A stretch of DNA of 64,000 nt from a virus: IMG/VR virus record IMGVR_UViG_3300028590_000009, positions 21,055-85,054 of that record, one strand, 5' to 3'. Shown here piece by piece: positions 2,765 through 60,827 of the stretch (within the stretch, counting starts at the first letter, position 1; each line of letters starts with the position of its first letter). The notes beneath the pieces are model-generated. The model was not told the origin of the DNA. It worked only from the letters and a program-made list of their open reading frames with translations, and searched no databases. The position numbers and the translations under genes were made by a program.

Positions 2765-4292
2765 GCGACTACATCCGCTTCATCGAAACCTGCGATCACG
2801 AGGGCGAGCGTTGGGCGTTCTGGCTCCAACGCGACGGCAACGAAGCAGCCCTCAACGAACTCGTCGAGATCATCAGTGCCGCCGAGGATGCGGCGACCGT
2901 AGCCGAGGGCTACTGGGAGCCTGCATATCAACTTCTCGGCGATATCGAACCCGAGGCAGTTGTCGACAAGCTGGTCGAGTACGCCGAGTCCGGTTACATG
3001 GATGACGTCAACAAGGTTGACGGGCGACTCGATGTGACCGGGTTGCGTAATCGGGACTGGGAGTCCGTCTTCGACCTGCTCTACAAGGGCGGCATCAAAG
3101 CGTTCTTCGAGGTGGCGGAATGAGCTACCACTCTGGCCGTCACTGGCCGCCGACGACAACGATCGAGGATGAGTGCCCGTGTCCGCAGGAGGCATGCGGG
3201 TTGGTGGACCTTCAGCGTGCCGTCCCAGAATGCGAACACCATCCACTCAATCGGTGCAAGTCGATGCGGCAAGGTCATCGCGCGCAGGACTGCCCGGGGG
3301 AGCGTGCAGCATGACCGACTTCAACTTCACTCCACCCGAGCTGGATTCGATGCGTGCAGCAGTCGCGATCTTGCGTGCAGCCGACCGCGAGAACGTCACC
3401 GCTATCGAACTGCTCGTCAACGGCGGGGACGCGCTGGAAATCGTGCAGTCCCTCGCCGCACTCACGCTCTCGATCACGAAGTTCATCGGCATGGACGTGC
3501 AGGACTTCACGGCGTTCGTCGCCAAGGACATCACCCGCATGGAAAGCGAGCGCGCCGCATGACGTATGAGTGGCATGTGTTCCGCGAGTACGGCGTCCGT
3601 TACTGGCTGGCGTGGCATCTGGTCCGCATCGCGCATCGAGTGAAGGACACGACGTTCCATCAGGTGATCCGCATCGCGGATGGGTCTGCGGTCATGATCG
3701 AGGCGGATACGTGGGGTGCGGGTGTGACTTCCGCTTACGGCGTGTGCACAGACGTGCAGGACGCGGATGGCTGGCCTGAACTGCGCGACTTCGATGACTT
3801 CGATGAAGCCCTCGACTGGATGCACGAGGGTCACAATGTCTGATCGCATCTCCGACGCCCAACTGACCGAGTGGGTTGAGCGGTCCAGCTACCCGGATGC
3901 TGACGATGCTCACGCGATGGTGGATGAGCTGGTGTATCTGCGGGTGCTGCTCGCCGACTTCATTGATCCCGATCCGTGCTGGTTCGACCATCACGGCGGT
4001 TGTCAGGCGCACGGCTATCTGACGTTGGAACCAGGCGAGATGTGCCCGCAGGCTGAGGCTCGGCGCTACCTGGATGAGGTGAAAGACCATGGCTGAACAC
4101 GAAGCCCTCACCCGCCTGCTGTCCGCGCATCAACCGAGGGGTCGCATCTGCATCGGCTGCACCGGCTGCCCTGATGTCGAGTTCATGACCAGCGTTGACC
4201 ACGCCGAGCATGTGGCCGAGTTGATCACCGCGGAGTTCATCGTCACCCCGAAGTCGGCAAAGAATGCGCGCGAAGCGCAGACGGGATTCTGA
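2761..4292 (+). other. Six coupled small hypothetical genes (2761-3123, 3120-3314, 3311-3562, 3559-3843, 3836-4096, 4089-4292)
   Basis: Consecutive ORFs with 4-8 nt start/stop overlaps. Confidence 0.7.
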
Positions 4293-4293
4293 A

Positions 4294-5466
4294 ATGAAGT
4301 CACTCGAAAACGGCAAACTGCTGTCCTGGGCAACCGAGATCGACGAAGCCACGATTAAGCAGGCAACCGCCCTGACCAGGCTCCCGTTCGTGCATCCGCA
4401 CGTAGCATTGATGCCCGACGCCCATGCAGGCAAAGGTTCTAGCGTCGGCACAGTGATTCCGACCGTCGGCGCGGTCATCCCCGCTGCGGTCGGCGTCGAC
4501 ATCGGGTGCGGGATGGTGGCCGTCGAAACGGATATTCGCGACACCGATCTCTTGGGCAAAGATCTCTCGACACTCCGGGAGCGCATCGAACAGGCCATCC
4601 CGCTGTCGCCAGGCAACTACAACTCCAGGATCAACCGCGATTCGGCGCAGGAAAGCATCGACAAGCTTGAGCGAATCGCAGCCATCAACTCGGTGGATCT
4701 CTCGCACTCGCCGAAGTGGCGCGAACAGTTGGGCTCGCTCGGCGGCGGTAACCACTTCATCGAACTCTGCGTGGACAAAGCAGGCTGGGTGTGGCTGTTC
4801 TTGCACTCCGGGTCGCGCGGCGTCGGCAACAAGATCGCTCAGAAGCACATCAAGATCGCGCAGTCGTGGTGCGCTGAGAACGGCATCGAACTGGAAGACA
4901 GAGACCACGCCTACCTGTCCGATGCGACATACGAGTTCCAGGACTACATGTCAGAGCTTCGATGGGCGCAGAAGTTCGCCAGGCTGAACCGAGACGAGAT
5001 GATGGATCGGTTCATGGACGTGTTCGAAGACTGGCTCGGCTGGGCAGTGGTCGCATGCAATCGGATCAATACACACCACAACTACACCGAGCAGGTCGAT
5101 TTCGACAAGACGTCGGTCTGGCTGACGCGCAAGGGCGCAATCGATGCCTCCCTGGGCGTTTGGGGGCTCATCCCCGGTTCAATGGGTACCGGGTCGTATG
5201 TGGTTCAGGGTAAGGGCAATTCGCAGGCGCTGTACTCGGCCCCGCACGGCGCTGGGCGTCGATTCTCTCGCACGCAGGCTCGAAAGACCTTTACCGCCGA
5301 AGATCTCGCGGCGCGCATGACCGGTATCGAGTACCGTCACGGCGAAGAGTGGATTGACGAGATCCCGGACGCATACAAGCCGATCACGGAAGTGATGGAA
5401 GCGTCAGCCGACCTGGTTGAGGTCAAGCATGAGCTTCGTCAGATCTTGAACGTGAAGGGTACCTGA
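4294..5466 (+). CDS. rtcB: RtcB family RNA ligase
   Basis: Motifs MPDAHAGKG, VGVDIGCG, GGGNHFIE, HSGSRG, HHNY, RKGA, PGSMG, HGAGR. Confidence 0.95.
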   Translation: MKSLENGKLLSWATEIDEATIKQATALTRLPFVHPHVALMPDAHAGKGSSVGTVIPTVGAVIPAAVGVDIGCGMVAVETDIRDTDLLGKDLSTLRERIEQAIPLSPGNYNSRINRDSAQESIDKLERIAAINSVDLSHSPKWREQLGSLGGGNHFIELCVDKAGWVWLFLHSGSRGVGNKIAQKHIKIAQSWCAENGIELEDRDHAYLSDATYEFQDYMSELRWAQKFARLNRDEMMDRFMDVFEDWLGWAVVACNRINTHHNYTEQVDFDKTSVWLTRKGAIDASLGVWGLIPGSMGTGSYVVQGKGNSQALYSAPHGAGRRFSRTQARKTFTAEDLAARMTGIEYRHGEEWIDEIPDAYKPITEVMEASADLVEVKHELRQILNVKGT

Positions 5467-43045: not shown

Positions 43046-45082
43046 CTGATCCGCTCACACTCGCGCGGAAACCGTGGCTCACCGCGGAATCCGAATCCAT
43101 CTGGGACATCACGGGCGAATACCGCAACGGTGGCAGCTTCACCAACTGTCTCGCCATGGTGTTGCCGTTCGACACCACTGACGGGCATCGCCTGTTCGTG
43201 CTGATCCACCCCAACTTTCACACCAGCCCGATCGACAGTCACGCGCTCATCTCGCCCGACTGGATCACGCACGCGCGCCGCCTGGTCCTCGTTGAAGCGA
43301 ACGACCCGACCGCCGCCTACTTCGCCGACGAACAGGACTTGATCAATGGCTGACCCGACCAACCCGGATTACTACAAGTTCCCCAACGGTGCCGAAACCA
43401 TCGACATCACCGAATGGCTGTCATCCTGCGGCGGGCAGGCGGTGCAGTACATCACCCGCGCGACCCGCACGGACGGCAAGGTCAAGGGCGACCCGATCGA
43501 AGACCTATCGAAGGCGATCTGGTTCCTGTCCCGCGAGCGCGGACGACTGCGGGCATTAAAAGGCGACGGGCATCAGGTCGAAGCCTGGGCTGACGTTCCA
43601 CCTCGCGCGGCGGACGAGTCATGACCGCGACTGTCCCGCCCCAGTTCCGTTACCTCCAGCGCGCCGAACAGTTGATCCGCAACCTGTCTGCTGGCACCGA
43701 GTTCACGAACGCCGACATTTACGCGCGCATGAAGGCCGCGGGTTGGCCGGACATGACTGAGCCGCGCAAGTTCGGGCCGATGCTGCAACGGCTGCAACGC
43801 GCGCGTGTGGTGGAGAAGGTGGGTTGGTCGGCGACGGTGGCCCGATCGCATGGCGGGGTGGCGTCAGTGTGGCGACGTATCAACAACATTGAGGAGAAGG
43901 CTGATGAGTAGCCCCGATGACCGACTGACCGATGCTGAGCTGCGCGACTGGGCAGACCAGTCGACGGACAGGGCTGACCATGCAGCCGAGGGGGTCGCGA
44001 TCCAAGCCGCTCGCGAACTGATCGAACTGCGCGCATGGAAAGCCAACGCTGAGATCACGTTGGCCGAGGACAAGCGGTACATCGACGAAGCCAACTCGGG
44101 GGAGTTGGTCAAGCGGCTCGGTGACGAGGTGGACGAACTGCGCGCCACTCTGGCCGCGATCAAGGCCGCCGATCCTGACCTGTTCGACCCGCGCGGCGGC
44201 ACCAACCGGGGAGCAGCGCACGAAAACTACGGATCGCCAGGCCACGCCTTGCGCGAAGCCTACTGTGCCGCAATCGGAATCAACCTCAACGACTACACGG
44301 GAGACGACGAATGACCGAGCAGACACTGGCGGATCAGATCCGTGCGCAAGCCGCGATCAGCGATCGCCCTGGGCAGTTGGTCGAACTTGAACGGATCGCG
44401 GACGAGGCGGATCGGTTGCAGCGTGGCGGTAAGGCTCTCGGTGACATCGTGCGCCGACTTCAGGACGCCGCCCTCGATGCGACGGGCCTGCATGACGTGA
44501 TCGGCGAGGACGGTGACGGCGACTGGGCTGCCGTGTGGGAGTGCGTCGCAGACCTGGGCGAGAAGGTGCGGCGCCTGACCGTCGAGCGTGACGAAGCCCG
44601 CGAGGAGTTGCAAGACCTGCGCAACCGCTACCAAATCCCGTGGTGATGCAGGCAATGACCCGAAACAATCCAGGAGGCAACGAATGACCGAGATCGACAC
44701 TCTGATCGACGATTTGGCATCCGAGCGTGCCCGTGCCGTCGACAACCTCGACCGCGAAACCATGGTCGTCGGTGCCAGCGAGTTCATCACGCTCTATGAC
44801 GCGCTCGTTGCTGCCCGTGACGAACTCGACCGTGTGGCGCATCTGCATGAGCAGTGGAAAGCGTCCGTCGATGACGACTACGCCCGGATCGCGGCGAAAC
44901 AGTTCCGGGACAAGGCCGCGCAGATCGCTCTTCGTACCGAGATCGAATCCCGCCTCGACCTGTGCAGGAACCCCGCAACCGTGGATGTGAAGACGGGCGA
45001 GTTCAAAAACCCTGACACGGCCGGGTATTCGCGGGCATTGCGGGAAGTGCTGACACTGCTCGACGGGGAGAAGACGGTATGA
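43042..45082 (+). other. Further small hypothetical genes (43042-43353, 43621-43911, 43904-44314, 44311-44646, 44684-45082)
   Basis: Coupled ORFs. Confidence 0.65.
43346..43624 (+). CDS. DUF3310 domain protein
   Basis: DPTNPDYY..ETIDI..G.AVQYI.RA..K..IEDL.KAIWFL.RE. Confidence 0.85.
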   Translation: MADPTNPDYYKFPNGAETIDITEWLSSCGGQAVQYITRATRTDGKVKGDPIEDLSKAIWFLSRERGRLRALKGDGHQVEAWADVPPRAADES

Positions 45083-46902
45083 GCGTGAACCCGCACAGCA
45101 CCGCGGAATTCGAGCGGATCGCCAAGGACAACACCATCCTCCTCGGCCAAGTCGGCTCGGGCCTGCACGGCGTCACCACGGGCGATGATGATCGCGACGA
45201 AATGGGCGTCTGTCTGGAACCGCCCGCCTACGTCATCGGCAACGCCCAGTTCGAGCAGTACATTTTCCGCACCCAACCCGAAGGTGTCCGTTCTGGCGCA
45301 GGCGATCTCGACCTCAACATCTACAGCCTGCGGAAATGGGCTCGCCTCGCCGCGCAGGGTAACCCGACAATCCTGCTGCTCATGTTCATTCCAGCGGACG
45401 AGCTGGTGATTTGCGACGCGTTCGGCGCCGATCTGCAAGCCCATCCCGAACGGTTCCTGTCGCGCCAAGTAGCGGACAGGTTCGCGGGCTATCTGGTGTC
45501 GCAGCGGGATCAGATGTTGGGGTTGAAGTCGAAGAAGCACACGAATCGGCCCGAATTGGTCGAGCAACATGGGTTTGATTGCTACCTCGATGACACCGAG
45601 TTTCTGACCCGTCGCGGGTGGCTCCTCTACGACCAGATTGACGACGGCGACGAACTCGCCACAATCAACCAGGACACAGGCCAAGTCGAGTTTCAGCGTT
45701 TCATCGAGCGCGTGTCAAAGCCTTACTCGGGGCCGATCCTCACCTGCAAGACGCGCTACAGCGAGTGGGCGGTGACGCCGAATCATCGTATGCGAGTGTC
45801 GAAGATGCGGCGCGGTTCATGCGGCGTGAACCCGCGGGCCTACAACCCTGCGACCGCCGCTTGGGGATTCCGTCCCGCTTCGGATGTGACCCGACTTGAC
45901 TGGTATCAGCAGGTTGTTGCCACGCCTCGGGATGAGGAGATCCCTGTCTCGGATGCGCACTTGGCGTTGATTGGCGCGTTCGTGTCCGAGGGGTCTTTCG
46001 GGAAGCGGCGTAAGGACGGCACTGTCGCCAACTTGCAGATATGCCAGGTGGACGGTGGACGCCTGCACGAGACGATGGTTCTCGCTGCAACGGAGTACGC
46101 GTTCCGGACCTACCGATTCAAGGCGCGTGACGAGACTCGGCGCCCAGGCACGATTTGGACGTTCTCGCATCGTGCGACCGTCGATGAGATCGTGAAGTCG
46201 TGTGGAGATCGCAGCGAGACTCGGCGGCTTCCAGATTGGGCGCTCAACCTCTCGGCTCGCCAGATAGACGTCCTGTTGGATGCGCTGCTCAGTGGCGATG
46301 GCACTCCGCATCGAACGGGAGGCTGGGTCTACTACACCACTTCGTGGGAGTTGGCCGGGCAGGTGCAGGCGATCGCTGTCATGCGTGGGCGTCGCGCGAA
46401 CGTTCGCGGGCCGTACGTGCACGATGGGAACACGGGCATGTATCAGGTGCTCATTCACGATGCTGGCGATACGCCGTTCGCGCCGTTTCGCGGCCGGGAT
46501 GTAAAGAGTGTCGATATCGAAAACCGATCCATTGTTTGCTTCACCGTGCCGAATGAGACCCTGGTAACCCGCCGCAATGGGCATGTTGCGATGCACGGAA
46601 ACACCAAATTCGCTTATCACATGGTTCGGCTCGGCTTGCAAGGCGTCGAAGTGCTCACAACCGGGCGCATCACCCTGCCCATTCCCGAGCCTGATCGGAC
46701 ATGGTTGCGGGAATTGCGGCGCGGCGAGCACACGAAAGAGGAGGCGTTGGCGCGCGCCGATGATCTGCTCGACCAGTTGAATGTGTTGGCGAAGACCGCG
46801 GACCTGCCCGAGCGGCCCGATTATGACGCTATCGACCGCTGGTTGACGACGTTCTATCTGGCGTGGTGGGAAAACACGGGCCTCATGTCCGAGTTCAGGT
46901 AG
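45079..46902 (+). CDS. Pol-beta superfamily nucleotidyltransferase (RlaP/YcgL-like) interrupted by an intein
   Basis: VGSGLHG..DDRDEMGV, YSLRKW..GNP, and extein GFD|TKFAYHMVRL. Confidence 0.85.
   Translation: MSVNPHSTAEFERIAKDNTILLGQVGSGLHGVTTGDDDRDEMGVCLEPPAYVIGNAQFEQYIFRTQPEGVRSGAGDLDLNIYSLRKWARLAAQGNPTILLLMFIPADELVICDAFGADLQAHPERFLSRQVADRFAGYLVSQRDQMLGLKSKKHTNRPELVEQHGFDCYLDDTEFLTRRGWLLYDQIDDGDELATINQDTGQVEFQRFIERVSKPYSGPILTCKTRYSEWAVTPNHRMRVSKMRRGSCGVNPRAYNPATAAWGFRPASDVTRLDWYQQVVATPRDEEIPVSDAHLALIGAFVSEGSFGKRRKDGTVANLQICQVDGGRLHETMVLAATEYAFRTYRFKARDETRRPGTIWTFSHRATVDEIVKSCGDRSETRRLPDWALNLSARQIDVLLDALLSGDGTPHRTGGWVYYTTSWELAGQVQAIAVMRGRRANVRGPYVHDGNTGMYQVLIHDAGDTPFAPFRGRDVKSVDIENRSIVCFTVPNETLVTRRNGHVAMHGNTKFAYHMVRLGLQGVEVLTTGRITLPIPEPDRTWLRELRRGEHTKEEALARADDLLDQLNVLAKTADLPERPDYDAIDRWLTTFYLAWWENTGLMSEFR
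45580..46602 (+). mobile_element. Intein (341 aa) with LAGLIDADG-type homing endonuclease
   Basis: CYLDDTEFLT..GW start, VTPNHRM block B, LIGAFVSEG and LLDALLSGDG, ..MHGN|T end. Confidence 0.9.
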
Positions 46903-51919: not shown

Positions 51920-52511
51920 ACCGCACACAGTGGGTCGGTGCAGGTGTTTGCGCGTGCGGGAAACGGAACTACCTGTCCCGCAAAGACGCCCGCAAAGTCC
52001 TACGCAACAAATACCCCGGTGAACGCATGCACGTCTACGTCTGCCTGACCGCGGGCGGATTCCACATCGGCCACATGGCACCCGAAGTCGCCTGCGGTGA
52101 AGTGCCGAAAGAACTGTTCTACGGGCCGAAAGGTGTTGGCCGAGTGCGAGAGAAGCAGAAAACCAGGCTGGACCCGAAAACGAGGAGAGTGGCGGCGTGA
52201 GCACTCTCGCCAAGGTCGAGCACACGTCCTACTTGTGCCCCGCCGCATGGAACGGATGGGACGAGGACGGCAACTACTACCGGTTGAAGTATCGACGCGG
52301 GACGGGCCGAGTATTGCAGGTGCCTCGACTTGGCGGGTTCGCGAAGCTGGTCATCGAATTCAAGTTCGGTGATCCTCGCAACGGGTTTATCGAGCTGGAA
52401 GAGTTCTGTCGGCTCTCGGGCGTGACGCTCGCATTGGCCGAGCCTTACGTGCCGCTGGAGGATCCGAACGCGGGCATCGAGGACTACCCGGAGCCTGACT
52501 GGTCTGCGTGA
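51916..52511 (+). other. Two hypothetical genes (51916-52200, 52197-52511)
   Basis: 4-nt overlaps. Confidence 0.6.
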
Positions 52512-52750
52512 ACGGCATCATAGGCAGCGTCCGCCATCTTGCCCGCATCAGCGTCGAGAGCTTTGGCGATGCGGCGCAGTTGGTGGACGGTCGGGGATCT
52601 GAGGCCCTGTTCGAGGCGGCTAATCGTATTAGGGACGTAGCCAGTTCGGCGAGCGAGATCGGCTTGCGTGATGTCCTTGCGGGCGCGGGCTGCACGGAGT
52701 TCGCCCGCGAGGGCTTCCCGATAGGCAGCGGTGTCAGCGTCTTCGGTCAT
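52484..52750 (-). CDS. XRE-family HTH regulator divergent from the RNA island
   Basis: LRAARARKDITQADLARRTG..NTISRLEQG.R.PT..L..IA.AL. Confidence 0.88.
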   Translation of the reverse strand: MTEDADTAAYREALAGELRAARARKDITQADLARRTGYVPNTISRLEQGLRSPTVHQLRRIAKALDADAGKMADAAYDAVHADQSGSG

Positions 52751-53042
52751 GGAGTCATTCTGGCTTCCGATTTTCAGATGAGTGACCCATTTCACAATTG
52801 CAAAATTCCAGCAGGTCGGAATGGCAATTATATTGGAAATAGACTAGATAGCGCTAGAGAGTGCTAGACAATCGAGAACTGCCATGGTCTGATGGGGGTG
52901 CGCTAGTTGTGTCCGAAGATCGACCAACTTTCAGCCTCGCGGACATCGCGCCCGGGAATGTGATGTCTAGCTGTAGCCGTAGAGCCTTCCGCCATCCTCA
53001 CGGGTGGGCTGCCCTCTACGGCGCCTGAAGAAATGAAGTAGT

Positions 53043-53108
53043 TCCCCTGAAGCTCGGCGGCAGAGCGCCGCGACGGCGGAGGCCCGGATTCGAGTTCCGG
53101 CAGGGGAG
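53043..53108 (+). ncRNA. tRNA-like element with truncated anticodon arm
   Basis: Acceptor TCCCCTG/CAGGGGA+G; D arm GCTC/GAGC; T arm CCGGA-TTCGAGT-TCCGG; anticodon arm reduced to CCGC-GACG-GCGG. Confidence 0.75.
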
Positions 53109-53149
53109 CGGGACGGGTACGCAGTGTGGTAGCAAGCGCCCATCCAACC

Positions 53150-53198
53150 TCCTTTGGCGCAGTCGGTGCGCAGAACGGTTCGAGTCCGTCCATTGGAG
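53150..53198 (+). ncRNA. Minimal tRNA-like element lacking an anticodon arm
   Basis: GCGCA-GTCGG-TGCGC hairpin; ACGG-TTCGAGT-CCGT T arm; imperfect TCC../..GGA+G acceptor; 5' boundary ambiguous. Confidence 0.45.
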
Positions 53199-53255
53199 CG
53201 CGGGCCTCGGGACTCGTTGGGTTAACACCTCCCCCTGAGGACATATGAAAAGGTA

Positions 53256-53326
53256 TCCCTGTTGGCTCAGTGGCTAGAGCAACCCCCGTAAAGGGCTGTA
53301 CCCACGTTCGATTCGTGGACAGGGAG
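53256..53326 (+). tRNA. Atypical tRNA (possible GTA anticodon on an Asn-type body)
   Basis: TCCCTGT/ACAGGGA+G; GCTC-AGTGGCTA-GAGC; CCC-CCGTAAA-GGG; CCACG-TTCGATT-CGTGG; lacks U33 and is about one base short. Confidence 0.6.
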
Positions 53327-53329
53327 CAA

Positions 53330-53856
53330 AGCGCAGCCTAGCTAGTTGCGCTGGTGGTGACAGAGTGTGCGTCTTGCGCGAATCGGGACGCAATGTGTGC
53401 GACTTACGGGATCCTGACGGGCGAGTGCCTGAGGGGAAGCCTTAGCGGGCGGAAACCGATGCCTAGCGGCCGGGTCGTAGCTTCGGGCCTAATCATACTT
53501 ACGATTCATGCCCCGAACGGAGAGCTAGTAACTCTCCCCACCGTCTAACTTGCCGCCTCTTCGCGGAGGGGTTGGAAGTGCCTCAACGGAAAGTCGTCGG
53601 ATGGCGAGGCCGCTGGGGCGCGAAAGTGTTGCAGCGACAAGATCGCTGAGCAGTGAGGTCAAAGCTCACCAGTCCCGTTTGCGGGGCGACTACAGGGCAG
53701 GTGGCCGAACGGAGTTCGCCGTTCGGTGCCTGCCTCACAAGCGGGAGTTTCCGGTGTCTCCCGAAAAAAACTGGCGGCTGACCCTCGACATGGGGAAGGG
53801 TGCGATTTCGCGATAGCGCCTGACGGAGTTGAGCCATCTCCGCTATCAAACGGCTC
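53330..53856 (+). ncRNA. Large structured ncRNA candidate (~530 nt)
   Basis: More than 15 stems, multiloop closure, GAAA and T-loop-like loops, 3' pseudoknot; bounded by tRNAs; no credible ORF. Confidence 0.65.
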
Positions 53857-53859
53857 CAT

Positions 53860-53935
53860 CGCAGTGTGGCGCAGCTCGGTCTAGCGCAGCGGGCTCATAA
53901 TCCGCAGGTCGTCGGTTCGAATCCGACCACTGCAA
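53860..53935 (+). tRNA. tRNA-fMet (CAT), CCA not encoded
   Basis: C1:A72 mismatch; GCAGTG/CACTGC; GCGGG-CTCATAA-TCCGC; GTCGG-TTCGAAT-CCGAC. Confidence 0.92.
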
Positions 53936-53937
53936 CG

Positions 53938-54335
53938 AGCGGATAGGGCAACGATCCGTACAAAGGCGGATTTGATCACCGCCAGCAGAAATGCACAGTG
54001 CCCGGAGTTGGCCGAGCTTCGTCAGCAAAACGGCTTCGACTTCACGAGTTGGATAGCGCAACCACGGGCGGAACTGAATCCAGGGCCGCATTGCGCGAGG
54101 TTGGGAACCTTGGAGAGTCGCGAATCTCCTGATCCACCCCCTGGCGGGCACGCGCACTTCGCGGCAGGTATCTGCCGTAAGCCTCTGCCCGTCGCGCAGG
54201 CATACCACCCTCTGCCTCTGGCGGCGGGCTTAACCCTTCGGGGTTTCACGACCGGTTCCGCTCGCTTCGGCAGTCCAGGGCCGGTCCTCTACATGGCCGC
54301 TCGTCCACTCCCGCATCAGGGAGGGGCGGGCGGTT
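53938..54335 (+). ncRNA. Second hairpin-dense non-coding block
   Basis: Successive stems up to the RBS of 54363. Confidence 0.45.
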
Positions 54336-54362
54336 CTCATTCCCACTCTGCCAGGAGTTCTC

Positions 54363-54671
54363 ATGAGCGCGCTGCGCTACCGCAAGAGGCCCGTCGTGAT
54401 CGAGGCCGAGCACCTGTCGAGCCTCAACGGCGATCAGGTCACCGAGTGGATCAGGGCGAACGGTGGTCACGCGCGCCACGTCTACTCCGACCCGATCCGA
54501 CGCGAGATGTTCGACGGTGACTGCCCGAACTGGATCGAGATCGAAACCCTCGAAGGCACGATGACGGCCAACGTGGGCGACTGGATCATTCGTGGCGTCA
54601 AGGGCGAATTTTACCCGTGCCGCAATGACATCTTTGAGGCCACCTACGAGCGCGCCGAGGAGACCGCATGA
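54363..54671 (+). CDS. Conserved phage protein (PGDYG-like)
   Basis: YRKRPVVIEA..IETLEG.M.A.VGDWII.GVKGEFYPC..DIF..TYE. Confidence 0.85.
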   Translation: MSALRYRKRPVVIEAEHLSSLNGDQVTEWIRANGGHARHVYSDPIRREMFDGDCPNWIEIETLEGTMTANVGDWIIRGVKGEFYPCRNDIFEATYERAEETA

Positions 54672-56126
54672 GCGAGAACGAGATCGGCGGCATCGTCCGC
54701 AACACTGCCGACCAGCTCGCGGACGCACTTCATGTGCCCTCGTTCGCCTCCGCCATCGATGCGACGTTGCGCCCGATGTATGCCGACGTCGCAGCCGCAC
54801 ACGAAGCGCACGTGCACTACTCGCCCGTGGTCGATTGAACCCGCTCCCCGGAACTCTCGCCTGGGCACCGAACGAGCCCGACCCGGTGACGGTCGAACGC
54901 TGCTGGATGTGGCCGTTCCCGTACGCCGAGGTGCGCACATCACGCGACTGGCTGATCACGGTCCCGACAGCACGACTCACATACCTCGACGTTTGGGAGT
55001 GACCGTGGCGCGAGTGCCGTACGACTGGCGTGCCGAATACGAGGATCCGCCCGACGTTGAGCAACGCGCCTGCCCGAAAGGCGGCCCCGACTGCGGTTGC
55101 CGCCACTACCTGCCCGGTGAAGCCGAATGGCTGACCTGACCGACGAGCAGGCCGAGACCGCCGCGCACATGCTCCGCGAATTCACCGCCGTGCATCCCGT
55201 CGACGGCCCGAAACTCGCATTCTTCACAGCACTCTTCGCGGCCATCGCGAGAAACCCACCCACACTGCCCGAATGAAAGAAGCACCTCATGGCCGACGCC
55301 GCAAACTCGTACGTTTTCACCATCGCTGGCGAGGCTGGTGAAGTCACCGTCGAAGAACTCGCCGCCGCGATGACAACCGCCCTCAACACTGCCCTGCGCA
55401 CTGTTCCCGCAGGCGGCACCACGGGCCACGTCCTCACCAAGACCTCGGGTGGTTACGCCTGGCAGGCCGCGACATAACCGTGGCTGATCTCGCTGACGGC
55501 GGCCCGCTCCCCGAACAACCGGACGGGCCGCCCGACTTCTGCACTCCCTGCGCGTACTCCGCGCCGCACTTCCACCCAACGATTCCCGGTGCCGACTGGT
55601 TCATCGAGGGTCGACGCTTCCGTGAGGTCGGCCGCATCCCCAACGCGAACGGCGCGACAGTCCACCTCGCAGCCGCCGACACACCGCCCCCATTCCATTA
55701 GGAGCCCCGTTGAGCCTGAAAATGTACGCCACCGACTTCGTTAACGGCTTCGAGTACATGTTCACGCTCCCCGAAGAGGTCGTCGGCGGCGTCGACACCT
55801 ACTACGCGGGCAGCAAACCCTATCTCGCGGGCCAATACACCGTGGACACCGAAACACTCACCACATACTTCAACCATCCCGCGATCGGCGACCGGTTCCT
55901 CACCCTCGACGACGACACCACCTATGTGCGCGTCACGGGCGGGTCTGCGACGTTCACGGGCGGCACGATCCTGCTGGACCAGTCACGCGAAATCTTCTGG
56001 CCCAACGGTGAAGGCGGTCCCCTCGTCAACTTCCGGGTTGTCGAACCGTCCCCGCCAACCCATCCGCTCGACTGGTTCTTCATCGAGGTCGACCGGGCGC
56101 TCGAAGACTACAACGCAACAAGCTAG
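54668..56126 (+). other. Small hypothetical genes (54668-55002, 55289-55477, 55480-55701, 55710-56126 and others)
   Basis: Adjacent ORFs with plausible codon usage. Confidence 0.55.
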
Positions 56127-56389: not shown

Positions 56390-57310
56390 ATGTCCATCAA
56401 CTCCTGCGCACGAACCGCACTCGTTTGCGTGATCGCGCTCGGCCCACTCGTCTTCGCTTCCGGGCACGCTGTCGCTGACGGCCCCGACTGTCGCCCGTTG
56501 GTGATCGGTGTCGGCGGCAACGGCGAACGCGCCAACACCAACTTCGGGCGCGCAACCATCGTCGGCGACATGCTCGAATACGAAGCCCAACAGGGGAATC
56601 GGGTCGAAGCACTCGACTACAAATCCAGCGTATGGCCTACCGGTCCGTACACGAAGGACGAATCCGTCACCGATGGCCGCGCGCGACTGCAAGCCCGTAT
56701 CGCCGAATACCGCCAAGACTGCCCGAACGGTCACGTCACCGTCATCGGTCACAGCCTGGGCGCCGAATTCGCTGACGAGGCAGACGCCGACCGGGTAGTG
56801 ACGTACGGGGATCCGCGGACTCCTGGCGGCATCTACTCGGCACTTCCGGGCATCGTTCCGGGCATCTCCTCGCCCGGTCCACGCGACCCTGACCCGCGTG
56901 TGACGACCGTGTGCCACGAGTTCGATGCGATCTGCGACAGCCCCGCGCCATGGGCCGATCCTGCCAAGTTCGTTCAGGGATGGGCGGGCTATGCGATGGG
57001 CTGGCATTACTACGCGCCCGACGAAGCCGATGGGCTGCCGCCTGGTGATCACCTTATCGACCGTCCCGCACCTTTGCCGTGGCTGCCCGAATCGACACCG
57101 ACCGGGATTCCGAACGCGCCGACCGCGCCGCTGCCCACATGGGAGCCCGGACCGCTGCCCTCGCTCGAAATGCTCGACCCCGGACCGTATGTGCCGACAC
57201 CGCTGTCCACGTGGATCCCGGACGAGGTTGAAGCGTTCCTGCCGCCCGAGGTGACGGGATTCGTTCCGCCGCCGCTGCCTGCCATCCCCGCGCTTCCATC
57301 GATTGGATGA
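56390..57310 (+). CDS. Secreted cutinase/PE-PPE-like alpha/beta hydrolase with Pro-rich tail
   Basis: Signal peptide (..GHAVA|D), GHSLG, YGDPR, C...DAICD, H..Y. Confidence 0.8.
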   Translation: MSINSCARTALVCVIALGPLVFASGHAVADGPDCRPLVIGVGGNGERANTNFGRATIVGDMLEYEAQQGNRVEALDYKSSVWPTGPYTKDESVTDGRARLQARIAEYRQDCPNGHVTVIGHSLGAEFADEADADRVVTYGDPRTPGGIYSALPGIVPGISSPGPRDPDPRVTTVCHEFDAICDSPAPWADPAKFVQGWAGYAMGWHYYAPDEADGLPPGDHLIDRPAPLPWLPESTPTGIPNAPTAPLPTWEPGPLPSLEMLDPGPYVPTPLSTWIPDEVEAFLPPEVTGFVPPPLPAIPALPSIG

Positions 57311-58608: not shown

Positions 58609-59118
58609 ATGGCACGCAAAAAGACAATCCCCGTCGAAAAACTGGTAGCGACCCAAGAAAAACGCAACTACTGCCTCGAACGCAGACTCGCCGGCCTCAC
58701 GCAGAAAGAAATCTGCGAAGAAACAGGCTGGGACAAGTCCGCGGTCTCCCGCTACATCAGCACCGCCATCGCCGACATCACCCGCGAAAACGCCACCGAA
58801 TTCCTCGAAGTCGAGCTGGCCCGCCTGGACGCGATGTGGGCAGCCATCTGGGAAGACATCGTCAACCCAGGCGAAGACGACCGCAACGGCCAAACCTGGA
58901 AGATCGACCGCGCACTCGCGATCATGGACCAGCGCGCGAAACTCACCGGCAGCTACAAGACCGCCGAAATGAAAGCCGTCGCCGACGCCCGAGGCAACCT
59001 CAACACTGAAACCTCCTCGATGGTCGGCCGCTTCTTCGACGCCCTCGAAAAGGTGTACGAAGCCGACGGCATCACAGCGGCTACGGAGGCGCCCGAGTCT
59101 GCGGACGACGAACAGTGA
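58609..59118 (+). CDS. Terminase small subunit
   Basis: N-terminal HTH, ELARLDAM, IMDQRAKLTG; overlaps TerL start. Confidence 0.8.
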   Translation: MARKKTIPVEKLVATQEKRNYCLERRLAGLTQKEICEETGWDKSAVSRYISTAIADITRENATEFLEVELARLDAMWAAIWEDIVNPGEDDRNGQTWKIDRALAIMDQRAKLTGSYKTAEMKAVADARGNLNTETSSMVGRFFDALEKVYEADGITAATEAPESADDEQ

Positions 59119-60827
59119 GCCTGCTGGACACACTTCCCCTGTCCCGCAAACAAATCGCTTCCATCGTCGAAGCCCGCCGCGCACGAGTCTCCATACTCTC
59201 CGGCGCGGTGCGATCAGGCAAAACCATCGCCAGCATCCTCGCCTTCTACGACGCGGTACTACGCGCCCCCGAATCCGGGCTCATCATCATCGTCGGCCGA
59301 ACCTTGCAGACGATCGAACGCAACATCATCGAGCCCATGCAAGACCAAGCCGTATTCGGCATATGGTCGAACGAAGTCCACCACACACGCGGATCCTCCA
59401 CCGCGATCATCCTCGGCCGCACCATCCACCTGATCGGCGCCAACGACGTCCGCGCAGAAGGCAAACTCCGCGGCATGACCGCCTGCCTCGCGCTGGTGGA
59501 CGAAGCCACACTGCTCCCAGAAAACTTCTGGACCCAGCTCCTCGCGCGCCTCTCCGTCCCCGGCGCACGCTGCCTGGCAACCACCAACCCCGACAATCCA
59601 GCCCACTTCCTGAAGGTCAACTACATCGACCGACAGCACGAACTGGACTTGCGGGCCTGGTCGTTCATGCTCGACGACAACCCGTCACTCGACCCCGACT
59701 ATGTCGCCGCGATCAAAGCCGAATTCTCCGGACTGTTCTACCTGCGCAACATCAACGGATTGTGGGTCGCCGCCGACGGCGCCGTCTACGACTGCTTCGA
59801 CCCCGACCGCCACGTGGTGCCATGGGGCGAACTGCCCGACCTGCAATGCTATATCGGGATCGCCGTCGACCACGGCACCACCAACCCCACCCATGCGATC
59901 ATGCTCGGTTTAGGTGTCGACAACGTGCTGTATGCGGTCGACGAATGGCGGTATGCGCCCTCGAACAAAGAGGCCCGCAAAACCAACGTCCAACTCTCGC
60001 AAGGCTTACGGGGCTGGATGGCTACCGCCCATCATCCGCGCGAAGACCCGGACAGCCCGCCACGCATCACCTGCCCCGTTATTGTTGACCCTGCCGCCGC
60101 GGACTTCCGAGTCCAGTTGAAGCAGGACGGGCAACGCACGGTACCCGCCTACAACGAAGTGCTGTACGGGATTCGAACCACCTCCGCACTGTTCTCTATC
60201 GAAAAACTGAAGATCAGCGACCGATGCCCTGAACTGTTGAAAGAAATCCCCGGATATGTGTGGGATACGAAAGCGACAGAAGAAGGCAAGGATGCGCCGG
60301 TCAAGGTGAATGACCACGGCTGTTTTGTGGCCGGCACGCTGGTCGAAACCGTCGACGGGCCGCAGCCAATCGAAACGATCGAACCCGGAACGCTGGTGTT
60401 GACCCGGTTCGGGTATCGACCAGTCCTCGACGCTGGATGCACAGGGGTTCACGCTCCACGTGCGCTGCTCCTGGCCGACGGCACCACATTGCTTGGGACT
60501 GCGAATCATCCGGTGTTCGTCGACGGCGAAGGCTTCACGCCGATCGAGGAACTCCACCCCGGCGACGTCATTCAGCAGGCGACTGGTACGAGCGCCGTCG
60601 TCAGTGTCGATTGGGTCAAAGGTCTCGAACCCGTCTACAACCTGACAGTATTCGAACAGCCTGAGTATTACGCGAACGGCGTACTCGTCCACAACTGCGA
60701 CTCGTTGCGCTACTCCATCGCATCGACTGAACGCAAATGGCGGCGTCGTATCAAACTCGCAACCCAATTCCGACCCGAAACGGCGGACGAAGATCCTGGC
60801 TTTACAAAGCAAATAGACTTGAAGTAA
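59115..60827 (+). CDS. Terminase large subunit with mini-intein
   Basis: GAVRSGKT, LVDEA, TTNPD.P.H, VDHG, VDPAA, NDHG|CD.LRY. Confidence 0.95.
   Translation: MSLLDTLPLSRKQIASIVEARRARVSILSGAVRSGKTIASILAFYDAVLRAPESGLIIIVGRTLQTIERNIIEPMQDQAVFGIWSNEVHHTRGSSTAIILGRTIHLIGANDVRAEGKLRGMTACLALVDEATLLPENFWTQLLARLSVPGARCLATTNPDNPAHFLKVNYIDRQHELDLRAWSFMLDDNPSLDPDYVAAIKAEFSGLFYLRNINGLWVAADGAVYDCFDPDRHVVPWGELPDLQCYIGIAVDHGTTNPTHAIMLGLGVDNVLYAVDEWRYAPSNKEARKTNVQLSQGLRGWMATAHHPREDPDSPPRITCPVIVDPAAADFRVQLKQDGQRTVPAYNEVLYGIRTTSALFSIEKLKISDRCPELLKEIPGYVWDTKATEEGKDAPVKVNDHGCFVAGTLVETVDGPQPIETIEPGTLVLTRFGYRPVLDAGCTGVHAPRALLLADGTTLLGTANHPVFVDGEGFTPIEELHPGDVIQQATGTSAVVSVDWVKGLEPVYNLTVFEQPEYYANGVLVHNCDSLRYSIASTERKWRRRIKLATQFRPETADEDPGFTKQIDLK
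60321..60695 (+). mobile_element. Mini-intein (125 aa) without endonuclease
   Basis: CFVAGTLVET, GTANHPVF, VYNLTV..YYANGVLVHN|C. Confidence 0.92.

What the first reader, a model, noticed from the sequence alone, without database searches (positions are those of the whole stretch)
53330..53856. Candidate large ornate phage ncRNA (~530 nt) bracketed by tRNAs
Seen: continuous pairing from 4 nt after the third tRNA-like element to 3 nt before tRNA-fMet. Stems include AGCGCAGC/GTTGCGCT, and GGTGG(53353)/CCACC(53538) closing a multiloop that contains TGCGTCTTG/CGGGACGCA, TGCGACTT/GGGTCGTA, CTGAGG/CCTTAG, TTCGGG/CCCGAA and GGAGAG/CTCTCC. Further stems are GCCTC/GAGGC, CGCTG..GCGC-GAAA-GTGT..CAGCG, GTGAG-GTCAAAG-CTCAC, GGGCAGGT..CCGAACGG/CCGTTCGG..GCCTGCCT and CGGGAG/CTCCCG. 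A terminal pseudoknot is possible: loop GAGCC 53831 with GGCTC 53852. Many G-U pairs indicate + strand RNA-level selection. Known: GOLLD and ROOL are large phage ncRNAs found beside tRNAs, with unknown function. Inference: a divergent high-GC member or a new class, excised by tRNA processing. With the tRNA mimics and RNA-repair genes, this is the best candidate for an undescribed system here.
Basis: partly seen in the sequence, partly recalled or inferred. Interest (0 to 1): 0.88.

Follow-up and report, generated by a model that had tools for sequence, protein, structure and literature searches.

The report
Chain of small phage tRNA-array RNAs
The flagged gap in a Nocardia phage's tRNA cluster is a chain of smaller folded RNAs rather than one giant RNA, and its first 220 bases belong to an uncatalogued RNA family, of unknown job, that also occurs in lab-grown mycobacteriophages.

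Summary
The stretch 53328-53859 is non-coding and lies on the + strand between a tRNA-like element and tRNA-Met. The contig is a temperate Nocardia-type phage from a soil metagenome. No Rfam 15 family matches it, GOLLD and ROOL included. Its folding energy is no better than that of shuffled sequence.

Comparative data show a mosaic of modules:
- Module 1 (53328-53551) is a self-contained RNA of about 215 nt and ten helices. I collected 29 distinct copies. In an independent alignment, 26 of 41 pairs show compensatory changes and 97% of cells are paired, against 38-48% for slid controls. A tRNA or tRNA-like gene ends 0-3 nt before it in 25 of 29 copies. In three loci it fills the whole gap between two tRNAs.
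- A two-hairpin module (53555-53621) and a four-hairpin module 2 (53624-53742) are conserved separately.
- The last 117 nt have no comparative support.

Module 1 occurs in 10 of 151 sampled Nocardia genomes. More distant copies lie unannotated in Mycobacterium phages Bromden, Chaser, DyoEdafos and Aegeus.

Release of the modules by tRNA-processing enzymes is inferred, not shown. The function is unknown. Earlier notes of this scan (e1-5842552, e1-5967052) describe what appears to be the same family on other DNA.

The parts
53256..53327 (+). tRNA-like 'handle' directly in front of module 1. ARAGORN labels it tRNA-Tyr(gta), but the anticodon arm is not canonical.
   Evidence: ARAGORN. No RF00005 match here at E up to 10. 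In 25 of 29 copies a tRNA or tRNA-like gene ends 0-3 nt before module 1.
53328..53551 (+). Module 1, a structured RNA of about 215 nt from an uncatalogued family. It has hairpin P1 (53330-53352) and closing helix P2 (53353-53357 with 53538-53542) around helices P3-P10. The strands GGUGACAGAG and AAUGUG are invariant. Several hairpin loops carry UAGC.
   Evidence: Model R2 match at 53326-53556, 219 bits. Covariation. No conserved ORF. Motif counts.
53555..53621 (+). Linker module of two hairpins: 53555-53572 (UUCG-type loop) and 53578-53621.
   Evidence: Conserved in L148, L151 and L057. 7 of 24 pairs are compensatory in 4 sequences.
53624..53742 (+). Module 2, a four-hairpin RNA of about 120 nt with the invariant strands GAGCAG, CCAGUCC and GGGCGA. 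Its distribution is independent of module 1.
   Evidence: Model R3 match, 113 bits. 11 of 21 pairs compensatory; 93% paired against 38-44% for slid controls. In 7 of 11 distinct loci it ends flush at the 5' end of a tRNA.
53743..53859 (+). Tail of 117 nt in front of tRNA-Met, with predicted hairpins only.
   Evidence: Found only in the Nocardia aurea prophage (L148/G001) at 94-95% identity, in 1 of 151 Nocardia genomes. No covariation test is possible.
53860..53936 (+). tRNA-Met(CAT), the downstream boundary.
   Evidence: ARAGORN. Rfam tRNA, 60.6 bits.

Best explanation
The gap is a head-to-tail string of separately conserved small structured RNAs. It sits in the tRNA array of a temperate Nocardia-type siphophage.

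Its main part, module 1 (53328-53551), is a complete RNA gene of about 215 nt from a family that Rfam does not hold. It consists of a 5' hairpin and a five-pair closing helix around a multi-helix core. Two single-stranded blocks are invariant (GGUGACAGAG and AAUGUG), and two to four hairpin loops carry UAGC. One copy is present per phage. It lies directly behind a tRNA or a degenerate tRNA-like element.

Inferred, not shown:
- The array is transcribed as one precursor.
- The host's tRNA-processing enzymes release the modules as stable RNAs. The cuts would be an RNase Z-type cut after the discriminator of the upstream tRNA-like handle, which is followed by CAA rather than CCA, and an RNase P cut at the 5' end of the next tRNA.
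- The degenerate handles are kept only as cutting signals.

The function is untested. Close relatives with the same tRNA cluster lack module 1, so it is an accessory cargo. My best guess, at about one chance in four, is a trans-acting RNA that binds or decoys a host RNA-binding or RNA-cutting factor through its repeated loops. I do not think it is needed for tRNA function.
For: Fold:
- A 4-sequence MAFFT/RNAalifold fold gave 53 pairs, 16 of them compensatory.
- A 10-sequence model alignment gave 33 of 53 pairs compensatory and 97.9% paired, against 36-51% for slid controls; 0 of 500 shuffles reached this.
- An independent 16-sequence MAFFT alignment gave 26 of 41 pairs compensatory and 97.4% paired, against 38-48%; 0 of 500 shuffles reached this.

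Family membership and spread:
- Model hits of 125-256 bits in IMG/VR loci and in 12 of 12 Nocardia loci from a pattern scan. The other 17 of 29 loci from that scan gave no hit.
- More distant full-length hits of 33-38 bits in Mycobacterium phages Bromden, DyoEdafos, Chaser and Aegeus and in one provirus. These share the core blocks and helices.
- All 29 distinct copies hold both invariant blocks. 27 of 29 hold 2-5 UAGC, against about 0.8 expected.

Unit size and position:
- A tRNA or tRNA-like gene ends 0-3 nt upstream in 25 of 29 copies.
- Module 1 fills the whole inter-tRNA gap in L052 (213 nt), L129 (213 nt) and L185 (204 nt).
- One copy per record in 5 of 5 records.

Other points:
- Not coding: no frame stays open across copies.
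- Accessory: terminase relatives L003, L004, L006 and L009 lack it. It is in 10 of 151 sampled Nocardia genomes.
- Modules 2 and the linker have their own covariation and distribution.
- The tRNA-like handle in the window fails the Rfam tRNA model.
Against: - No transcript data exist. No RNA run was available, so ends, processing and stability are all inferred.
- Folding energy is no better than shuffled sequence.
- Modules 1 and 2 lie next to each other in the same order in 8 loci, and in 6 of the 10 Nocardia genomes that carry module 1. The closest relative, L148, keeps the whole 530-nt layout. A longer composite RNA in this phage is therefore not excluded.
- In 4 of 29 copies ARAGORN calls no upstream tRNA (L039, L148, L178, L192).
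- In L152/L173 a tRNA-Met sits inside module 1. Strict tRNA processing would cut that RNA in two.
- Nothing found points to a specific partner or target. No protein gene was seen to co-occur, and the decoy idea rests only on repeated loops and on context.
Confidence: 0.6

Rival explanations
1. One reading: the whole stretch of about 530 nt, or about 1 kb including the embedded tRNA-Met, is one large ornate RNA whose modules are domains.
For: - No tRNA interrupts 53328-53859.
- L148 keeps the same order over the full length.
- Modules 1 and 2 are neighbours in 6 of the 10 Nocardia genomes with module 1.
- GOLLD shows that large RNAs with embedded tRNAs exist in mycobacterial tRNA clusters (PMC6582537, passages read).
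Against: - Each module occurs without the others. Module 1 is alone between two tRNAs in L052, L129 and L185. Module 2 is alone in L004 and L006. In L129 the order is reversed with a tRNA in between.
- The spacing between modules 1 and 2 varies from about 35 to about 158 nt.
- No pairs that covary and link the modules were seen.
- The last 117 nt have no conservation beyond one near-identical prophage.
Confidence: 0.2
2. A cis-acting spacer. The structures only help the folding, processing or stability of the neighbouring tRNAs and have no function of their own.
For: Always flush with tRNAs or tRNA-like elements. Never found outside tRNA arrays in the genomes searched.
Against: - A ten-helix fold with invariant single-stranded blocks is far more than a spacer needs.
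- The upstream tRNA partner varies: Leu, Asn, Ile, Ala, Arg, Pro or degenerate.
- Close relatives run the same kind of tRNA cluster without it.
Confidence: 0.1
3. Decayed tRNA genes or chance GC-rich hairpins without function.
For: Folding energy equals that of shuffled sequence. Degenerate tRNA-like elements lie next to it. UAGC is also the usual start of a tRNA D arm (recalled, not tested).
Against: Compensatory changes in 26 of 41 pairs, invariant blocks in 29 of 29 copies, and conservation from Nocardia prophages to mycobacteriophages.
Confidence: 0.03
4. A small protein gene: the 64-codon GTG ORF at 53354-53548.
For: The ORF exists in the window and in L148.
Against: No frame stays open across copies. 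For example, the longest open stretch in any frame is 50 codons in L007 and 53 in L184 and L185, out of about 75. By my own reading of the L005 row, L005 has an early in-frame stop. Substitutions follow helices, not codons.
Confidence: 0.02

Closest known systems
GOLLD RNA (Rfam RF02032; accession recalled)
   Same: A structured non-coding RNA of phages and prophages lying among tRNA genes. Some members hold an embedded tRNA. It has been reported inside a mycobacterial 32-tRNA cluster and detected by Northern blot (PMC6582537, passages read). Its function is unknown.
   Different: No match to the Rfam model at E up to 10 or in 8 homologous loci. Module 1 is about 215 nt against more than 400-800 nt. 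The helices and conserved blocks are different.
ROOL RNA (Rfam RF03087; accession recalled)
   Same: A phage- or prophage-associated RNA often near tRNAs, of unknown function. It forms RNA-only oligomers (abstract of PMC12286853 in the listing).
   Different: No model match. The taxa differ (Actinobacteria here). The conserved unit is much smaller. Oligomerisation was not tested here.
Stable RNAs 'species 1 and 2' (rnaC, rnaD) of the phage T4 tRNA cluster (recalled; papers only listed, not read)
   Same: Small non-tRNA RNAs encoded within a phage tRNA cluster and matured from the tRNA precursor. Their function is still unknown.
   Different: Different phage and host. No homology was tested, because no model is at hand.
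Antitoxin-like small RNAs (abiF RNA RF03085, DUF3800 RNAs RF02963)
   Same: They occur in the same actinophage tRNA arrays. There is an abiF RNA match in phage Chaser at L184 4579-4615 (40.5 bits, gathering score 37), and a DUF3800-IV match below threshold in L165 at 1335-1392. This fits the view of the array as a store of accessory RNAs.
   Different: The flagged stretch itself does not match them. Module 1 is several times larger and more complex.

Membership tests
GOLLD (RF02032) | Match to the family covariance model | tested here: not met
   No match at the gathering score, at E up to 10 on 52700-54300, or at E up to 0.1 on 8 homologous loci.
GOLLD (RF02032) | Phage or prophage location next to tRNA genes, with an embedded tRNA in some members | tested here: met
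   tRNA array context. A tRNA-Met lies inside module 1 in L152/L173.
ROOL (RF03087) | Match to the family covariance model | tested here: not met
   No match.
ROOL (RF03087) | One conserved RNA of about 580 nt | tested here: not met
   The conserved units are about 215, 65 and 120 nt and have separate distributions.
   Window 53326-53556: 246 bits with R1 and 219 bits with R2. The window was among the sequences used to build the models, so its own score is by construction. The independent support is the matches in other loci.
Uncatalogued actinophage 'behind-tRNA' RNA (module 1 family) | Invariant GGUGACAGAG and AAUGUG blocks | tested here: met
   Both are present in 29 of 29 copies, the window included. 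All four collection pattern scans required part or all of these two blocks, so their invariance is partly by selection. 12 of the 29 copies came from CM searches of genomes or from the terminase search and did not depend on a scan pattern.
Uncatalogued actinophage 'behind-tRNA' RNA (module 1 family) | Starts 0-3 nt after a tRNA or tRNA-like gene | tested here: met
   In the window the tRNA-like gene ends at 53327 and the RNA starts at 53328. The feature holds in 25 of 29 copies.
tRNA (RF00005), for the upstream handle 53256-53327 | Match to the tRNA covariance model | tested here: not met
   Only ARAGORN calls it. There is no RF00005 match at E up to 10.
Type III antitoxin-like RNAs (abiF RF03085, DUF3800-IV RF02963) | Match to the family model within 53328-53859 | tested here: not met
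   No match. The matches lie elsewhere, in related arrays.
Phage T4 species 1 and 2 RNAs | Sequence or structure homology | not testable with these tools
   No model or sequence was at hand. The resemblance is by context only and is recalled.

The most novel reading that the evidence does not exclude
Module 1 is a new class of trans-acting phage RNA, cut out of the tRNA precursor by the host's own tRNA-processing enzymes. It would use its repeated UAGC hairpin loops to capture several copies of a host factor, for instance a tRNA- or RNA-targeting defence nuclease or a tRNA-handling enzyme. Alternatively it would assemble into an RNA-only multimer as ROOL and GOLLD do. On this reading, actinophage tRNA arrays would be islands of counter-defence RNAs and not just codon-supply cassettes.
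Probability: 0.15. Interest if true: 0.8.

Novelty: new variant of a known kind. Interest (0 to 1): 0.55.

Why it matters
Phage tRNA clusters are usually read as codon-supply or anti-defence tRNA cassettes, and their 'gaps' are left unannotated. Here the gaps encode at least two covariation-supported RNA families that are absent from Rfam. The larger one also sits unannotated in Mycobacterium smegmatis phages held in culture collections (Chaser, Bromden, DyoEdafos). Deletion, transcript mapping and pull-downs are therefore straightforward. It adds an actinobacterial, much smaller counterpart to the GOLLD/ROOL puzzle. It also offers a possible reason why degenerate tRNA-like elements persist, namely as processing handles.

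Tried and rejected
- Rfam at gathering and at loose thresholds: no family over the stretch. The mir-611 match on the hairpin at 53692-53739 (27.9 bits, gathering score 90) is chance.
- Folding energy against shuffles: uninformative.
- Protein-coding reading: rejected.
- blastn of the window stretch, of the L052 copy and of a 45-nt core against GenBank phages found only tRNA or chance hits. The mycobacteriophage members were reached only through the distant subfamily.
- A neighbour-gene search with the phrog_11926 protein gave one weak locus.
- The 15-base core scan of viral contigs gave 117 stretches, mostly chance. 80 were listed, and 8 of those held a strong match to the model.
- A scan of alignment A5 for extra covarying helices of 4 or more pairs (pseudoknots) found none outside the nested structure. 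Invariant blocks cannot show covariation, so knots are not excluded.
- The link to RNA-repair genes was rejected: RtcB in 0 of 5 and RlaP in 2 of 5 other phages.
- Module 3 was searched in 151 Nocardia genomes and found only in G001.
- Promoter and terminator scan of 52000-55200: no promoter-like site and one terminator-like site on the - strand, below what shuffles give.
- Sequencing runs: no RNA holder listed. Three soil-metagenome DNA rows came up, one of them possibly the source.
- Literature: searches found no description of this RNA.
  - PMC10865867 (passages read) treats Chaser and Bromden tRNAs without mentioning it.
  - PMC10690425 lists 10,006 candidate viral RNAs (passages read).
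- The correct count is 12.

Full report
**Setting.** The window is part of an 85-kb IMG/VR virus record with 62% G+C.
- It encodes an integrase, RecT, a C5 methylase, RtcB, an RlaP-type nucleotidyltransferase, a cutinase-like (LysB-like) enzyme, a large terminase with a Hint domain, and an SPP1-type portal.
- The genes upstream of the flagged stretch are on the + strand, as are the tRNAs.
- Terminase relatives are proviruses of isolate genomes.
- A pattern scan of one genome per species returned 29 loci. 12 were Nocardia and all 12 matched the RNA model. The other 17 did not match. The host genus is therefore Nocardia.
- The DNA itself is held by soil-metagenome runs.

**The observation.** ARAGORN finds a tRNA-like gene at 53256-53327 and tRNA-Met at 53860-53936.
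- Rfam finds only the tRNA-Met. Nothing matches inside the gap at the gathering score or at E up to 10, apart from a chance miRNA match on one hairpin.
- The minimum free energy of the 532 nt is not distinguishable from shuffles on either strand: z = -1.52 and -1.63. The same holds for the first 221 nt: z = -0.13 and -0.67.
- Thermodynamics therefore gives no support.

**Relatives show a mosaic.** Terminase relatives carry tRNA clusters at the same place, about 5 kb upstream of the terminase gene.
- blastn and MAFFT showed that window 53297-53554 is conserved in L005, L007 and L010.
- Window 53629-53735 is conserved in L004 and L006, which lack the first part.
- L148 (Nocardia aurea) keeps the whole layout.

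**Module 1 (53328-53551).**
- A 4-sequence MAFFT/RNAalifold fold gave 53 pairs, 16 of them with compensatory changes.
- Model R1, built from it, found further copies in viral contigs and Nocardia genomes.
- A model-based alignment of 10 copies gave 97.9% paired cells against 36-51% for slid partners. 33 of 53 pairs were compensatory and 0 of 500 shuffles reached this.
- Such an alignment leans towards the model. I therefore repeated the test on an independent MAFFT alignment of 16 diverse copies with a de novo RNAalifold structure. This gave 41 pairs, 26 of them compensatory, and 97.4% paired against 38-48%; 0 of 500 shuffles reached this.
- The fold is a 5' hairpin P1, a five-pair closing helix (53353-53357 with 53538-53542), and helices P3-P10 inside it.
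- Conserved G-U pairs fix the + strand.
- All 29 distinct copies hold the GGUGACAGAG and AAUGUG blocks. All four pattern scans required part or all of these blocks, so this invariance is partly by selection. 12 of the 29 copies were found without a scan pattern.
- 27 of 29 copies hold 2-5 UAGC, mostly in hairpin loops, against about 0.8 expected.
- No reading frame stays open across copies.
- A search for extra covarying helices found none.

**Position of module 1.**
- In 25 of 29 copies a tRNA or tRNA-like gene ends 0-3 nt before it. The upstream partners are Leu-CAA, Asn-GTT, Ile, Ala, Arg, Pro, or elements to which ARAGORN assigns no amino acid.
- In 4 copies (L039, L148, L178, L192) none is called. 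In L192 a T-arm-like hairpin is visible by eye. In L039 and L148 the upstream sequence resembles another tRNA-like element of the window.
- The window's handle, and those of L165, L170 and L173, fail the Rfam tRNA model. Those of L080, L184 and L185 pass.
- In L052, L129 and L185 module 1 fills the whole gap between two tRNAs (213, 213 and 204 nt). This defines it as a self-contained unit.
- In L152/L173 a tRNA-Met replaces one peripheral hairpin.
- Each of 5 records searched in full has one copy.

**Spread of module 1.**
- It was found in 10 of 151 sampled Nocardia genomes.
- In a sample of 151 genomes of the family it was found in the query genome and in one distant full-length match of 33.7 bits. 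Three short matches of 17-20 bits I regard as chance.
- A second core-pattern scan of viral contigs brought in a distant subfamily. blastn identified these copies as Mycobacterium phages Bromden and DyoEdafos. The RNA is also present in Chaser, Aegeus and Baudelaire.
- In the Chaser and Aegeus records the gap is unannotated.
- These copies score 33-38 bits over the full length and share P1, the core blocks, the P3 hairpin, the UAGC-type loops and the 3' helices.
- The metagenome scan added little: 4 of 8 loci matched.

**The other modules.**
- The linker (53555-53621) is two hairpins shared with L148, L151 and L057. 7 of 24 pairs are compensatory.
- Module 2 (53624-53742) has four hairpins. 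In the first 6-sequence alignment 7 of 21 pairs were compensatory. In 11 copies 11 of 21 were, with 93% paired against 38-44%.
- Module 2 occurs without module 1 in L004 and L006.
- In 7 of 11 distinct loci it ends flush with the next tRNA.
- In L129 it lies upstream of the tRNA-Ala that precedes module 1.
- In the Nocardia sample it is strong in 7 of 151 genomes, and 6 of those also have module 1.
- The last 117 nt are matched only by the near-identical N. aurea prophage, so nothing can be said about their fold.

**Interpretation.**
- Shown: two, probably three, independent structured-RNA families. Their strand, their unit sizes, their fixed junction with tRNAs, their accessory distribution, and their absence from Rfam.
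- Inferred from what is known of tRNA maturation (recalled): RNase Z cuts after the discriminator unless CCA follows, and RNase P cuts at the tRNA 5' end. On this basis the modules would be released from a polycistronic precursor, with degenerate tRNA-like elements kept as handles.
- The proposed link to RNA repair is not general.
- The same arrays hold antitoxin-like RNAs: abiF RNA in Chaser and a DUF3800-IV-like hit in L165. This makes a host-directed accessory role plausible but unproven.

**Known relatives and novelty.**
- GOLLD and ROOL share the context but not the model, size or fold.
- GOLLD does occur in mycobacterial tRNA clusters with an internal pseudo-tRNA (PMC6582537, passages read).
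- I found no paper describing this RNA.
- A paper on cluster L tRNAs does not mention it (PMC10865867, passages read).
- A catalogue of 10,006 candidate viral RNAs could contain it in supplements that I could not open (PMC10690425).
- Earlier notes of this scan describe what appears to be the same family on other DNA. I re-derived their two claims independently: the position behind a tRNA, and the presence in lab mycobacteriophages.

**Verdict.** The finding is real and uncatalogued, but it is smaller and more modular than proposed. Its function is unknown, and it can be tested in cultured phages.

Noticed in passing
L152 2355-2664 and L173 1501-1810: A tRNA-Met (L152 2498-2573; Rfam tRNA, 42.4 bits in L173) sits inside module 1 in place of one peripheral UAGC hairpin. 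This parallels the tRNA embedded in some GOLLD RNAs.
   Followed up: partly
L184 (Mycobacterium phage Chaser) 4579-4615; L165 1335-1392: There is an Rfam abiF RNA match (40.5 bits, gathering score 37) between tRNA-Gly and tRNA-Lys of Chaser. There is also a DUF3800-IV RNA match below threshold (48.5 bits, gathering score 60.7) just upstream of the tRNA-like handle in a Nocardia prophage. Both are antitoxin-like RNAs inside phage tRNA arrays.
   Followed up: no
L129 5059-5547: The order here is module 2, tRNA-Ala(AGC), module 1, tRNA-Ile, each junction flush. The two RNA modules are thus separated by a tRNA and lie in the reverse order to the window.
   Followed up: partly
window 53256-53327: ARAGORN calls this tRNA-Tyr(gta), but the Rfam tRNA model does not match it at E up to 10. 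Several upstream partners of module 1 in other loci are likewise degenerate, and ARAGORN assigns no amino acid to 5 of 25.
   Followed up: partly
window 59115-60827: The large terminase subunit carries a Hint-type (intein-like) domain at residues 403-527.
   Followed up: no
window 4264-5466 and 45079-46902: RtcB RNA ligase (372 bits) and an RlaP-type nucleotidyltransferase lie far from the tRNA array. RtcB was not found in five other phages that carry module 1.
   Followed up: partly
window 53354-53548: A 64-codon GTG ORF lies exactly over module 1 and could be mis-annotated as a gene. It is not conserved as a frame in relatives.
   Followed up: yes
window 56390-57310: A cutinase / PE-PPE-like hydrolase (LysB-like) is present, consistent with a mycolic-acid-containing host such as Nocardia.
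   Followed up: no
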